Origin: Escherichia coli
Lineage (GTDB): Bacteria > Pseudomonadota > Gammaproteobacteria > Enterobacterales > Enterobacteriaceae
Length of the DNA stretch: 64,000 bases
Direction: 5' to 3' (one strand)
Assembly (NCBI RefSeq): GCF_041248615.1
Contig: NZ_CP158425.1
Shown: piece by piece, positions 60,001-64,000 of the stretch
Layout: each line of letters opens with the position of its first letter
How positions within the stretch are numbered: position 1 is the stretch's first letter
Position numbers: made by a program

Positions 60001-63000
60001 GGGTAATTAACCCTGACTAAAGCTTTCACCTATTCCGTCGCTCGCAAGCGGCTTTCGCACACTAACGAAGGTATGGCCTTTCGTCGGTGTTAAATTTTTC
60101 GGCTATTTGCAATCTGAGGTTGGATTGTAGATTTTAGTTAGAAATGGATCAAAGTCCGTTTTGTGCAAAACTTGGTTGACAACCCTCTTTTGGATGATGT
60201 GCCGTTTCGTGCAAAAGTTGGTTGGAGGCCAAGATGGCAGAGTTCGTAGGTTCGGCTGCTTCGCAAGCTGATTTCATTTGGAAGAACGCGGAAGACCTGT
60301 GGGGGGGGGATTTCAAGCATACCGACTTCGGCAAGATCATTTTGCCGTTTACCCTGCTGCGTCGATTGGAGTGCGCACTGGAGTCTACACGGGAAGCATC
60401 GCTCGATAGCCAACCAGCCACGATTGAGTTCTTAGAAGCAGAGTTCAGTGTTGATTTCGATGCGCTGCTATCTTGACCGCCAATCAGACCCGCATGGTTC
60501 AGGTTTGTGTATGAGAGTCCCCAAATGGCTGTAGTTCTAACCAAAGCCTTGATTGAAGCCGGCCGCACCGGAAATAGTGGGTACAGAAAAAAGCAGTTGC
60601 TTGCGCTGGGCGTAAGTAACCCGCCGAAAAGCGGCTGGATCGAACGACTGATCGGCACTGAGGTATCTGACGAGCAGTACGAACGCTTTCTGGGGCACAG
60701 CACGAGCAAGCTGCATATTCCGGTCGAAAATGAACACCTATTCCGGTTTAAAATGAACGCTGATTCCGGCTTGCGTGTACACCGATTCCGGACACCTCAG
60801 TGCACGTACTCTGATGTCAGATGAACCGTCCTGTTCCAACGTCTTGGATCCACAACTGCCGCGCTGCGCTTGGCTGCTGGCTTGTTCAGTGAGTCGAAAA
60901 GATGCCTCCCCTCAAAGCTCAGCTTCTGCTCGAAGAATCCCTGTCCGCATACTTTCCGGAATCACTGTTCAACTTCACCGGAATACGCACAAGCAGGCTG
61001 AACAGATCCTACGCGGAGAGCAGCCAGCCAAGGGGCTTCAGTATGCAAAGCGAGCGAAGAAGCTCGCTTCTGAAAGAAAAGCCACAATTGATCTGGATAA
61101 CGAGCACCTGTCTGAAATCGAAAAGTATCGGTAGCCCTAGACTTTTAGCCGCTGAAGATCTCTTAGATACCATTGGTGAAACTTGCTGAAGTCAGCCTTC
61201 TGTTTCTCTACCGTGCTTTTATAGATCGCATCACTGGTAACCGCACAAGCAGTCCAGCCAGCCTCATAGACGAAGCGAGTAGCTATCGGTGACTTCTTCG
61301 GGGTGCTATCCCAGCGGTTTTTGAGCCACCGCGCAAGCCCTTCATCAAGAGGGACAACCAGATTTAGCTGCTGTTTTGTGCGAGTGATACCGACATAAAA
61401 CAGCCGACGTTCCTCCTCGATTACCTCTTCGGTCGGAGGGGTGTTCATCGATGTGCGAACGCTGTAAACATCATCGGGTTTGCCGCCAGGAAATTCCTGC
61501 TCATTCAGCCCGACCAGTATTACGTTATCCCACTCCAGCCCCTTGGAACCATGCAGTGTGGAAAGGATGAAGGGATCGCAGTCAGTTGCAGCCTCGCCTG
61601 GATTCAAGATAAGGTTTAAAAACGTGCGGGAATCGATCTTACTGGAGACAAGTAGCTCCTCGATCCTCTTGACCCCTCGTTGCTGGTCGTTCGATCCAGT
61701 GCGAGTTACACCCTCAGAGCCAACACTATCAATGAAACCCTCCATACGCAGGCGTAGTAACACATCGATAGCAGGCGTTTCCTCTCCGTCTTTCTGGCAG
61801 ATAGTGGCGAGCCTGCCCAGCCGATCTTTTTGGTTTTGTGCGCCCTCGAATAACTGGCCTAGAGCAGACCATAGGTCGGCGTGCGGAGCCATCAATCCAC
61901 TGAGCGCCGCTTTGAATTGCCCTTTCTGCCAGCTAAAACCAGCCTCCTTCAGAAAGCCGTAAACAATCGCTTGTTTGTTGGGATGGTTTTCCAGTAGCCG
62001 CAGATCGCCGTACACAGACAGCAAGACGCCAACTACCAGTATCCCGATTTCAGTGCGGGTGTGTAATGCGCTTGAACCATTGAGGTAGCGATAAGGTAGC
62101 CCACACAGGCGTAAAGTAATTTCCGCCTCAGCAAGGTTCGCCTTAGTGCGGGACAATATGGCTTGTGTTCCACTGCTCACCGAGAGGTTTGATAGCACCT
62201 TGGATAGGCAGTTATCAAAGTGCAATCTGACCTCTGTTTTGGGGGTGCTAGGATGACTGACACAAAGCTTGGTCAGCTTTGTAGAGTTGCGCCGAATTAC
62301 CGAGTTAGCCATCAAGGAAAGCTCATGGCCAAATCTGAACGTGCATGACAGTTGAAACACCTTCGTATTCGGGTAGTGCTTTTCAAACAGTCCGCCGATA
62401 AAGTCTGGTCGAGCACCACGCCACTCATAAATACACTGGTTAACATCACCAACAGCCATAACTGACGTATCCGACTTAGATAGCAAGCGGGTCATGTCAT
62501 GCTGTATCAGGTTAACGTCCTGATATTCATCAACAATGATGTGCTTGAAGTGGGCACCAAGGCTGCTGTCATTACGCAACAGTGCGACAGCCTCAACCAA
62601 ACAGTCATCAAAGGTTCGCAGACTGTTTTCCTCCAGCAGCTCACAATAGCGGCCATAGGCGCGAATAAACTCCCGTTTGATGTTGCTGAACGTTGGATCA
62701 TTGGCAGCATCAACAGGAGTTACGGCCGCCGCCCGGCAGCGAGCAATAAACAGCTCGAAGTTTTCAATTTCATTGGGGTCAATAAAATTCGCCTCATGGT
62801 CAAAGCCATAGCAGTAGGCTTGCTTTACCAGTTGCTCATAGCGGTAGTCGCTTGGAGTAATGAGGTCTTTCTTCTTGATTATCTGTTGGCGTTCTCCGTA
62901 ACCAACAATCTTTAAGGCCAAGCTGTGGAACGTGCGGATTTCTGGAATCACGCTCGACATCAGTGCCGTCTTCAACTTCTCCGTGAAGCTCACCTGCGCC

Positions 63001-64000
63001 GACTTGTTGTACATCAGGATCAGAATGGAGCGAGGATCAGTTCCCGTCTTGACCAGCCGCTCAACGCGCTTTACAAGTATGGTTGTTTTCCCGCTACCAG
63101 GTACGGCTTTTACCAACGCATGTCCGGTGTCATGGCTGACAATACTTTTCTGCTCCCAAGTCAGTCTTTTTGTCATGCCTTAACCTTGTAATTGGCGCAC
63201 TGACGGGCCTCGGTGTAGGGAACGATCTTTGCTTTACTGTGACATTGCAGATAGCCATCCTCCCATCGGCCTGCTTGCTCGCACATAATGCAGTTGGGAA
63301 ATAGTGAATGAGGATCGGCGTGACGGATAAAAGCTCGTAAGTTATCTGCCAGCTCAGCGGCCCCTAACGATCTAGGCCATGTGTTCACGTCAGAATTGAT
63401 TGTTAAATCCACTTCAGCGAGCGGCATCGTTTGTTCGTTGAGTCGGCCGGAACCACTTAAACTCCAGACAGACATATCCACGTTACCTACTGAGCAGACG
63501 CCGCTACAGGTGTCCACAGATTGAAACGGGGGAAGCCAGTTGAATACTCTCAGGATCTTCTCCTTGATCGAGTAGGCCCCGGTAAGCAACATCTGAATAT
63601 CAGAGGCAGATTGGACCTTAAACTCAAGAATCGGGATACCGGCTTCGATCTTGTCTTGAGAGCAGGGGTGTGTGACACAAATCTCTACGTAGCAACGCCT
63701 TTCGCCAGTCGTATCATACAACATCACGTCTGGTCGCAGCCCTGTGACCTTATCGTGTTTTTCCAGCTCTGCCTGATCGAAAAATTGAGTCAAGTTGTAG
63801 CGTGCAGGCACGGATTTTACGCACTGACGTGCTTCGTCTCTAACTAAGGCTAAATGAGGACCATTACAGGCAACCCGGCGCTCCAGCTCAAGGCTAATAG
63901 GCATTTCACGGCTGAGAGCTTGTTGGTAGCGATAGAAGAATGCTTCTTTGCCGCACTTGTGAAGATAGGTTTCAAGGGCACAGCATTCTTCCGAATGGCG

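What the first reader, a model, noticed from the sequence alone, without database searches (positions are those of the whole stretch)
61137..64000. UvrD-like helicase translationally coupled to an upstream Cys-rich, possibly nuclease-like gene: candidate two-gene defence module
The 679-aa SF1 helicase starts 4 bp inside the end of the upstream ORF, indicating an operon. The upstream protein is not fully in the window; it has an acidic RPDVMLYD…E motif that could be a PD-(D/E)xK-type core and a C-terminal Cys/His cluster. Helicase plus nuclease pairs are a recurring architecture of anti-phage systems, and the pair sits beside an R-M-like remnant and an HNH nuclease. It does not match Gabija as I recall it, because no ATPase/TOPRIM partner is present.
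Basis: partly seen in the sequence, partly recalled or inferred. Interest (0 to 1): 0.55.

Follow-up and report, generated by a model that had tools for sequence, protein, structure and literature searches.

The report
Plasmid nuclease–helicase pair, likely defence
A UvrD-type helicase and a zinc-binding, restriction-enzyme-like nuclease form a conserved two-gene unit on about 800 IncHI2 resistance plasmids and in bacterial defence islands, so it is probably an untested immune system against phages or foreign DNA.

Summary
A 679-aa UvrD/Rep/PcrA-type helicase (61137-63176, minus strand) starts inside the stop codon of an upstream gene (ATGA overlap, 63173-63176). That gene runs off the window. 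The full protein is 328 aa, and the window holds residues 54-328.

Partner followed by helicase, usually with the same 4-bp overlap, is kept in every locus checked down to about 28% partner identity. Both genes are under purifying selection (dN/dS 0.11-0.18).

The pair is IncHI2 backbone (803 PLSDB plasmids, none in 50,697 phage records). Elsewhere it sits next to type I R-M, pAgo, Septu PtuA, SoFic, ThsA-like SIR2 and Mokosh-like genes, or is Tn7-like cargo.

It is not Gabija, because there is no GajA. It is not true CoiA, because PF06054 matched 0 of 61 members and the hosts are not Bacillota. It is not in PADLOC-DB 2.0.0, and I found no paper describing it.

Best reading: an unvalidated nuclease-NTPase defence module, a new variant of a known kind. 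The defence function and the complex are inferred. My co-fold test was inconclusive (pTM 0.65).

The parts
61137..63176 (-). UvrD/Rep/PcrA-type SF1A helicase, 679 aa ('uvrD2' in IncHI2 papers; RefSeq WP_032192809.1 'ATP-dependent helicase')
   Evidence: ORF. Pfam UvrD-helicase, UvrD_C and AAA_19. Closest solved folds are E. coli UvrD 3lfu, Rep 1uaa and PcrA 1pjr over about 645 columns. Motifs I, Ia, II, III, IV, V and VI are invariant in 18 paired helicases of 31-100% identity. dN/dS 0.11-0.16.
63173..64000 (-). 3' 828 bases (residues 54-328 plus stop) of the 328-aa CoiA_N zinc-ribbon / PD-(D/E)xK nuclease partner (RefSeq WP_001572342.1). Its start codon lies 159 bases beyond the window end.
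63173..63176 (-). ATGA stop/start overlap coupling the partner to the helicase
   Evidence: Read directly. The same 4-bp overlap is found in 20 of 26 loci as computed; most exceptions come from the script choosing an earlier alternative start codon or from a frameshifted or truncated copy.
63617..63976 (-). PD-(D/E)xK nuclease core (aa 62-181): helix with E63/H67/K71, D144 (63728-63730), E159 (63683-63685), K170 (63650-63652)
63197..63292 (-). C-terminal Cys4 cluster (C290-x2-C293...C306...C321), a putative zinc site
   Evidence: All four cysteines are invariant in 61 homologues. The model shows small beta-hairpins plus a helix. Metal binding is inferred, not tested.
60222..60476 (+). Remnant of a type I R-M hsdM gene (N-terminal fragment) downstream of the helicase
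   Evidence: RefSeq pseudogene annotation. 82-97% aa identity to the start of the intact hsdM that flanks the same pair in L006.

Best explanation
The two genes encode a nuclease-helicase defence module of the 'nuclease-NTPase' class, carried by mobile elements. In this window it sits on the IncHI2 plasmid backbone.

Shown:
- A catalytically intact UvrD-type SF1A motor is translationally coupled to, and co-inherited with, a 328-aa protein.
- That protein is built of a C2H2 zinc ribbon, a PD-(D/E)xK nuclease core and a Cys4 domain.
- The pair travels as cargo of plasmids, Tn7-like transposons and defence islands.

Inferred mechanism:
- The two proteins form a complex.
- The helicase loads on DNA ends, 3' single-stranded tails or branched replication and recombination intermediates of an invading phage or plasmid, and translocates 3'->5'.
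- This activates the nuclease, or feeds single-stranded or branched DNA to it, and the nuclease cuts.
- In effect this is an AddA/RecB-like helicase-nuclease split into two polypeptides, working along the lines proposed for Hachiman (HamAB) and Gabija.

Whether the outcome is selective destruction of foreign DNA or abortive infection is unknown.
For: - Module integrity: partner followed by helicase in 19 of 19 loci with partner identity of 40% or more, and again at 28-40% identity in L025-L027 and L029-L032. The ATGA overlap is conserved. Partner and helicase divergence correlate at r = 0.97 over 18 loci. dN/dS is 0.11-0.18 for both genes.
- Defence neighbourhoods in independent taxa: SoFic directly upstream (1.3e-47) and pAgo (6.9e-287); type I R-M plus PtuA (6e-199); ThsA-like SIR2, PDC-S15, type I MTase, MkoA-like and PDC-M26A; intact type I R-M in L006-8; toxin-antitoxin genes, HNH and a YobI-type ATPase.
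- Mobile cargo: first cargo gene of a Tn7-like element.
- Precedents: the CoiA-type N-terminal region recurs in validated defence proteins, namely PD-lambda-4B (PMC9519451, supplement) and Druantia DruB (PMC13092281, Table S5; weak PADLOC hit here at 3.9e-4). A GajB-like helicase with a non-GajA effector defends E. coli (PMC13069673). PD-(D/E)xK plus helicase operons generally form complexes and defend (bioRxiv 10.1101/2025.07.10.664194).
Against: - There is no phenotype for this pair anywhere I could search.
- The partner matches no PADLOC-DB 2.0.0 effector family.
- Complex formation is not shown. A linker-fused AF2 model gave pTM 0.65, which is inconclusive.
- The classical phage-inhibition phenotype of IncHI2 plasmids has been attributed to the ter cluster, not this locus (Whelan et al. 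1997, seen only as a reference in bioRxiv 10.1101/2022.05.11.491447).
- In IncHI2 the pair is a fixed backbone feature (792 of 803 plasmids at 95% identity or more), which also fits a plasmid-biology role.
- Distant stand-alone relatives in Bacteroidota are not in obvious defence contexts.
- Guilt by association is indirect evidence.
Confidence: 0.6

Rival explanations
1. A recombination or repair accessory that serves the mobile element itself. By analogy with CoiA-RadA and YraN-ComM, the nuclease would resolve D-loops or branched intermediates opened by the helicase. This would help plasmid, Tn7 or island DNA to replicate, resolve multimers or establish after transfer, rather than attacking invaders.
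For: True CoiA is a structure-specific PD-(D/E)xK endonuclease that resolves D-loops together with a helicase (bioRxiv 10.1101/2024.02.06.579203), and the partner shares its zinc-finger plus PD-(D/E)xK layout. The helicase is closest in fold to the housekeeping enzymes UvrD, Rep and PcrA. The pair is near-universal in the IncHI2 backbone and rides on Tn7-like elements.
Against: The pair also occurs in chromosomal islands with no plasmid or transposon functions but many defence genes. It is sporadic, present in 116 of 5,426 complete E. coli genomes. No IncHI2 paper I found assigns it a maintenance or transfer role. PF06054 membership fails.
Confidence: 0.2
2. An anti-plasmid or MGE-competition weapon rather than anti-phage immunity. 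The module would degrade incoming conjugative single-stranded DNA or small plasmids, giving IncHI2 and other carriers an advantage over rival elements (DdmDE-like logic).
For: It is carried mostly by conjugative plasmids (672 of 803 are predicted conjugative) and by Tn7-like elements. A pAgo lies nearby in L017. UvrD-type motors load on single-stranded DNA, the form in which conjugative DNA enters (established knowledge). No homologue was found in phage genomes.
Against: There are no data on plasmid exclusion. The neighbours are mostly classical anti-phage systems. IncHI2 plasmids commonly coexist with other plasmids in the same strain (general observation, not tested here).
Confidence: 0.12
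3. A divergent Gabija, or an accessory of the adjacent type I restriction-modification system, with no independent function.
For: The helicase's best PADLOC hits are GajB profiles (1.4e-51). Type I R-M genes or their remnant flank the pair in the window, in L006-8 and in L019.
Against: No GajA or any ATPase-TOPRIM gene is present. The GajB match covers only the N-terminal motor (aa 14-294) and scores about the same as PcrA, Rep and UvrD models (171, 169 and 150-160 bits). Most loci have no R-M next to the pair. IncHI2 kept the pair after losing the R-M.
Confidence: 0.04

Closest known systems
Nuclease-NTPase anti-phage systems with a PD-(D/E)xK effector and a helicase partner (Hachiman HamAB, AbpAB)
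   Same: A two-gene operon with a small PD-(D/E)xK nuclease plus a larger helicase. It occurs in defence islands and is expected to form a complex and be triggered by DNA ends or aberrant DNA.
   Different: The helicase here is SF1A UvrD-type, not SF2. The nuclease is not DUF1837/HamA (no PADLOC hit) and carries a CoiA_N zinc ribbon plus a Cys4 domain. No phenotype is known.
Gabija (GajA-GajB) and 'type II Gabija' Liu-DS1 (GajC-GajB)
   Same: A UvrD-family helicase partnered with a nuclease, encoded effector first and helicase second as in Liu-DS1. GajB HMMs are the helicase's best PADLOC match.
   Different: There is no OLD/TOPRIM GajA and no MazF-like GajC. The helicase is a full-length UvrD/Rep/PcrA-like protein with Walker A at residue 30, whereas Liu-DS1 GajB has its Walker A at K252.
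AddAB / RecBCD / AdnAB helicase-nucleases
   Same: A UvrD-like SF1A motor combined with a PD-(D/E)xK nuclease. AdnB, AddA and RecB are the next structural matches after UvrD, Rep and PcrA.
   Different: The nuclease is a separate polypeptide encoded upstream, not a C-terminal fusion. There is no second subunit (AddB, RecC or RecD). The pair is an accessory, mobile module, not a core repair function.
Competence protein CoiA (Bacillota) with RadA
   Same: An N-terminal C2H2 zinc finger followed by an atypical PD-(D/E)xK core (D in beta-2, E in beta-3) and a C-terminal extension. It works together with a helicase.
   Different: No match to Pfam PF06054 (0 of 61 members). The hosts are Gammaproteobacteria and the carriers are mobile elements. 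The partner helicase is UvrD-type, not RadA, and there is no link to competence regulons.
Other defence proteins with a CoiA-type N-terminus: Druantia type I DruB and PD-lambda-4B
   Same: They share the CoiA_N-type zinc-ribbon region. DruB works in a system that contains a helicase (DruE), and PD-lambda-4B works with an NTPase.
   Different: Similarity is limited to about 70 N-terminal residues (PADLOC 3.9e-4). The partner genes differ: DruA, C, D and E, or a STAND-like ATPase.

Membership tests
Gabija | GajB: UvrD-like helicase | tested here: inconclusive
   GajB HMM PDLC00117 at 1.4e-51, but it covers only aa 14-294. The score is about equal to the generic PcrA, Rep and UvrD models. GajB is not among the top 50 solved-structure matches.
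Gabija | GajA: OLD-family ABC ATPase plus TOPRIM nuclease encoded next to GajB | tested here: not met
   The only adjacent co-oriented gene has no GajA, ATPase or TOPRIM hit in PADLOC, NCBIfam or Pfam. The annotated neighbours lack one.
Competence protein CoiA | N-terminal C2H2 zinc finger (Pfam CoiA_N PF25164) | tested here: met
   4.7e-5 in the query and 58 of 61 family members. C34 and C37 are invariant in close homologues and at least 90% conserved in the broad set; H55 is invariant and H52 at least 90%.
Competence protein CoiA | CoiA nuclease domain family (Pfam PF06054) | tested here: not met
   No hit at E <= 10 in the query and in 0 of 61 members. The fold is nevertheless PD-(D/E)xK.
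Competence protein CoiA | Bacillota distribution, competence-regulated, acts with RadA in transformation | tested here: not met
   Homologues are gammaproteobacterial and sit on plasmids, Tn7-like elements and islands. The CoiA distribution is taken from bioRxiv 10.1101/2024.02.06.579203. Regulation and the RadA link were not testable.
PD-(D/E)xK nuclease superfamily | alpha-beta-beta-beta-alpha-beta core with conserved acidic residues (D at the start of beta-2, E in beta-3) and a lysine | tested here: met
UvrD/Rep/PcrA SF1A helicases | Motifs Q, I, Ia, II-VI and a four-subdomain architecture including 2B | tested here: met
   Pfam hits, invariant motifs, and Foldseek alignments of about 645 columns to 3lfu, 1uaa and 1pjr. 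The scores are far below the NCBIfam equivalog cut-offs (171 vs 911 bits and similar), so it is not an orthologue of UvrD, Rep or PcrA.
AddAB/RecBCD-type helicase-nuclease | Nuclease fused C-terminally to the motor, and a second large subunit | tested here: not met
   The nuclease is a separate upstream gene. No AddB-, RecC- or RecD-like gene is adjacent.
Hachiman | HamA (DUF1837) nuclease plus HamB SF2 helicase | tested here: not met
   The partner has no HamA hit in PADLOC, and the helicase is SF1.
Nuclease-NTPase anti-phage systems (functional class) | Operon of a nuclease effector plus an SF1/SF2 NTPase | tested here: met
Nuclease-NTPase anti-phage systems (functional class) | Protein-protein complex between nuclease and NTPase | tested here: inconclusive
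   The linker-fused AF2 model gave pTM 0.65 and pLDDT 82.3. No contact or PAE read-out was available.
Nuclease-NTPase anti-phage systems (functional class) | Protection against phage infection | not testable with these tools
   The only support is genomic association with known defence genes.

The most novel reading that the evidence does not exclude
The pair is a previously unnamed, self-sufficient immune system: a 'split AddA' in which a UvrD-type motor licenses a CoiA-like, structure-specific nuclease to destroy the replication or recombination intermediates (D-loops, forks, 3' tails) of phages or incoming plasmids. Because it is fixed in the backbone of IncHI2 plasmids, the main vehicles of mcr-1, mcr-9 and other resistance genes, it would shape which phages and rival plasmids can enter hosts that carry these plasmids.
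Probability: 0.4. Interest if true: 0.65.

Novelty: new variant of a known kind. Interest (0 to 1): 0.5.

Why it matters
If it defends, about 800 sequenced IncHI2 resistance plasmids in Enterobacter, Salmonella, E. coli, Klebsiella and Citrobacter carry a phage or plasmid barrier that current defence annotation (PADLOC-DB 2.0.0) does not report. That bears on phage therapy against these strains and on plasmid ecology.

Mechanistically, it would add a UvrD-type motor paired with a CoiA-like nuclease to the nuclease-NTPase systems. It would also link a fold known from D-loop resolution in natural transformation to immunity, alongside the CoiA-like N-termini of DruB and PD-lambda-4B.

The hypothesis is cheap to test, because the pair is only 3 kb and its natural host is E. 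coli.

Tried and rejected
- Gabija: rejected because no GajA is present.
- Genuine CoiA or a competence function: rejected as family membership (PF06054 matched 0 of 61; wrong taxa), but kept as a mechanistic analogy.
- A third conserved gene: none found. The upstream neighbours differ between loci: SoFic in L011, a 405-aa ORF with no hit in L017/18, and an SMC_N ATPase in L029.
- Sequence search of the PDB with the family profile: only chance zinc-finger hits.
- NCBIfam for the partner: nothing.
- Phage genomes: no homologue.
- Co-folding the pair as a linker fusion: pTM 0.65, uninformative. The follow-up Foldseek search only re-identified UvrD, Rep and PcrA.
- Scanning genome contigs with the broad alignment failed because it has no conserved stretch. 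The narrower alignment worked.
- Promoter and terminator scan: nothing decisive. The best promoter-like site lies outside the window.
- Literature searches (CoiA+UvrD, CoiA+helicase+anti-phage, IncHI2+UvrD, IncHI2+defense, DefensePredictor tables, RefSeq accessions): no description of this pair.
- Stand-alone Bacteroidota relatives (L021, L023): no helicase next to them and no clear defence context.
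Full report
**1. What is in the sequence**

On the minus strand, a 679-aa ORF runs from 63176 to 61137. It is a UvrD-type superfamily-1 helicase: Pfam UvrD-helicase 3.7e-44, UvrD_C 4.9e-18, AAA_19 2.2e-17.

Its ATG shares the bases ATGA (63176-63173) with the TGA of an upstream ORF in another frame.

The region is 100% identical to large E. coli plasmids. It was found in 116 of 5,426 complete genomes, with 120 of 121 places on plasmids. From plasmid pCFSAN061771_02 I recovered the whole gene: 328 aa, RefSeq WP_001572342.1, named 'hypothetical protein' in most records and 'competence protein CoiA family protein' in this one. 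The window holds residues 54-328.

The window as a whole is IncHI2 backbone: trhI/N/U transfer genes, the ter cluster, mcr-1 and HipBA.

**2. The partner protein**

Pfam finds only the CoiA N-terminal zinc ribbon (CoiA_N, residues 27-59, 4.7e-5). NCBIfam finds nothing. PADLOC-DB 2.0.0 gives only a weak match of residues 13-85 to the N-terminus of Druantia DruB (3.9e-4).

Close homologues (51-98% identity, all about 328 aa) come from Klebsiella, Azotobacter, Pseudomonas, Aeromonas, Vibrio, Halomonas, Shewanella, Marinobacter and others. A profile search of 1.84 billion cluster representatives found 3,209 relatives at E <= 0.001.

In an alignment of 61 sequences reaching about 22% identity, the invariant residues are H55, E63, H67, K71, C113, E133, D144, L147, E159, K170, E179, C222, C290, C293, C306 and C321. 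C34, C37, H52, C60 and C98 are at least 90% conserved.

- BpuSI, a DUF820 protein, the hantavirus cap-snatching endonuclease, NgoMIV, VRR-NUC, Bax1 and others

In the model, D144 opens a strand and E159 lies in the next strand. They are preceded by a long helix carrying E63, H67 and K71, and followed by a short helix carrying K170. This is the PD-(D/E)xK arrangement with an atypical 'E-x-C' in place of 'E-x-K'.

The C-terminal cysteines form an invariant Cys4 site. I infer three structural metal sites: C34/C37/H52/H55, C98/C113/C218/C222 and C290/C293/C306/C321. I could not measure their geometry.

**3. The helicase**

Across 18 paired helicases (31-100% identity), the following are invariant:
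- motif I (GSGKT, 27-31)
- motif Ia (TFH, 82-84)
- motif II (DEYQD, 216-220)
- motif III (VGD..Q..Y..RG)
- motif IV (FRFGH)
- motif V (H..KG.E)
- motif VI (EERRLFYV..TR)
- a family-specific C-terminal set (W617, W622, P626, F635, Y637, E638)

The predicted fold aligns over about 645 columns with E. coli UvrD, Rep and PcrA. AdnB, AddA and RecB come next. GajB is not among the top 50. NCBIfam scores lie far below every equivalog cut-off, so this is not an orthologue of a housekeeping helicase.

**4. The pair is a conserved module**

In all 19 loci whose partner is at least 40% identical to the query, the helicase follows immediately. The same holds for five more distant representatives at 28-40% partner identity: P0066, P0068, P0074, P0075 and P0081. 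The 4-bp overlap is retained in most loci.

Partner and helicase divergence are tightly correlated (r = 0.97, n = 18). Both genes show dN/dS of 0.11-0.18, with similar dS within each locus.

No third gene is conserved. More distant relatives in Bacteroidota, and P0083, stand alone without a helicase.

**5. Where it lives**

PLSDB holds the partner in 803 plasmids, 792 of them at 95% identity or more. By genus: Enterobacter 258, Salmonella 225, Escherichia 177, Klebsiella 67, Citrobacter 38. 672 are predicted conjugative. This is the IncHI2 backbone, where papers list the helicase as 'uvrD2' next to hipA/B without assigning a function (PMC13049778). No phage genome has a homologue.

Outside IncHI2, the neighbours within 8 kb are typical of defence islands and mobile cargo:
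- L006-8: an intact type I R-M
- L011: SoFic directly upstream (1.3e-47)
- L017: a class II pAgo (6.9e-287) plus TniQ
- L019: type I R-M (HsdR and HsdS subunits detected) plus Septu PtuA (6e-199)
- L003: ThsA-like SIR2 (1.7e-29) and PDC-S15 (1.8e-105)
- L004: type I-like MTase/S, an AriA/PtuA-like ATPase, HNH proteins and another UvrD-like protein
- L005: an MkoA-like helicase (7.9e-82) and PDC-M26A
- L030/31: MazEF, ParE/Phd, HNH and a YobI-type ATPase
- L032: the pair is the first cargo gene after tnsA-B-C-tniQ-tnsD of a Tn7-like element

The hsdM fragment beside the helicase in the window is 82-97% identical at the protein level to the start of the hsdM gene of the intact R-M in L006. The IncHI2 region is therefore a decayed copy of a 'pair plus type I R-M' island that kept the pair.

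**6. How it most likely works**

Shown: two co-inherited, selectively maintained genes encoding an intact SF1A motor and an intact PD-(D/E)xK nuclease with zinc modules, carried on mobile elements among defence genes.

Inferred: the two proteins form a complex. The helicase recognises DNA ends, 3' tails or branched intermediates of an invader and translocates 3'->5'. The nuclease is thereby activated or fed substrate.

The inference rests on three analogies:
- AddA and RecB have the same two activities fused in one chain.
- Nuclease-NTPase systems were found to co-purify as complexes in the 14 of 16 systems that could be purified (bioRxiv 10.1101/2025.07.10.664194).
- True CoiA is a structure-specific ssDNA/D-loop endonuclease that acts with a helicase (bioRxiv 10.1101/2024.02.06.579203).

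My only direct test of complex formation was an AF2 model of partner, 30-residue linker and helicase. It gave pTM 0.65, and the tool offers no PAE, so the result is inconclusive.

**7. Comparison with known systems**

- Gabija: not this. There is no GajA, and the GajB similarity is generic to the UvrD family.
- 'Type II Gabija' Liu-DS1: not this. Its effector is MazF-like and its GajB carries an N-terminal extension (PMC13069673).
- Hachiman or AbpAB: not this. Those use an SF2 helicase and a DUF1837 nuclease.
- CoiA: not a member. PF06054 matched 0 of 61, and CoiA is reported only in Bacillota.
- CoiA-type N-terminus in defence proteins: it does recur, in PD-lambda-4B (HHpred 93.6% to CoiA positions 1-63, partnered with a STAND-like ATPase; PMC9519451 supplement) and in Druantia DruB (HHblits 99.6% to PF06054 positions 1-149; PMC13092281 Table S5).

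I found no paper or PADLOC model describing a CoiA-like nuclease paired with a UvrD-type helicase. Public records call the proteins 'hypothetical protein', 'Competence protein' and 'ATP-dependent helicase'. I could not run DefenseFinder or a newer PADLOC release, so a recent name cannot be excluded.

**8. Verdict**

It is best filed as a new, unvalidated variant of the nuclease-NTPase kind of defence system.

My confidence in the defence reading is about 0.6. The main rival is a recombination or repair accessory serving the mobile element itself (about 0.2). An anti-plasmid role (about 0.12) is a sub-case worth testing.

A specialist would not be astonished by another helicase-nuclease pair. 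Its fixation in the IncHI2 backbone and its easy testability in E. coli still make it a worthwhile candidate (interest 0.5).

Noticed in passing
window 28480-29592 (+): A second protein with a CoiA_N zinc ribbon (370 aa; Pfam 1.6e-7). It stands alone, close to the ISApl1/mcr-1 insertion. It shares only the about 23-residue ribbon with the helicase partner. RefSeq also calls it 'competence protein CoiA family protein', and the collinear reference plasmid has hha next to it.
   Followed up: partly
window 30740-35491: mcr-1 (31997-33622, +) lies between two ISApl1 copies in inverted orientation (transposase ORFs 30800-31801 + and 33891-34892 -). A 535-bp segment (34957-35491) is inverted relative to pCFSAN061771_02, which breaks the pap2 gene. 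This looks like an ISApl1-mediated inversion rather than the usual direct-repeat Tn6330.
   Followed up: partly
window 60222-60476 (+) versus L006:20773-20987: The hsdM pseudogene fragment next to the helicase is 82-97% identical (aa) to the start of the intact hsdM of the type I R-M that flanks the same pair in Klebsiella/Enterobacter-type chromosomal islands. The IncHI2 backbone therefore inherited a 'pair plus type I R-M' island and later lost the R-M.
   Followed up: yes
L032:209-10867 and L017:3498-16480: In L032 the pair is the first cargo gene behind tnsA-tnsB-tnsC-tniQ-tnsD of a Tn7-like transposon. In L017 (Zhongshania) it lies between a class II pAgo (6.9e-287) and a TniQ-like gene.
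   Followed up: partly
L017/L018:6756-7973 (+): A 405-aa ORF ends 16-28 bases before the partner gene in both Zhongshania loci and has no PADLOC hit. It could be a lineage-specific third component or just a neighbour.
   Followed up: no
window 35485-52984: The tellurite-resistance region: terZABCDE-like genes, TerY/vWA genes, and ATP-grasp/PRTase/HAD genes. This is the cluster to which the historical IncHI2 phage-inhibition and colicin-resistance phenotype was mapped (Whelan et al. 1997, seen as a reference in bioRxiv 10.1101/2022.05.11.491447). It lies about 8 kb from the pair.
   Followed up: no
window 55868-57494 (+) and 58286-59101 (+): A HipB/HipA toxin-antitoxin pair and a 271-aa HNH endonuclease lie between the ter region and the helicase pair. 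A second short HNH gene lies just beyond the window end, upstream of the partner (L001:8873-9211).
   Followed up: no
window 16000-22000: A low-GC stretch (0.35-0.38) with five consecutive same-strand ORFs of about 290-320 aa, all annotated hypothetical. Only 19738-20676 and 20842-21804 are detectably paralogous (27% identity, 5.8e-37).
   Followed up: partly
L015:8001-9029: In Pseudomonas asuensis the partner gene appears frameshifted near codon 267 (two tblastn segments in different frames) while the helicase is intact. This is a possible decayed copy or a sequencing error.
   Followed up: no
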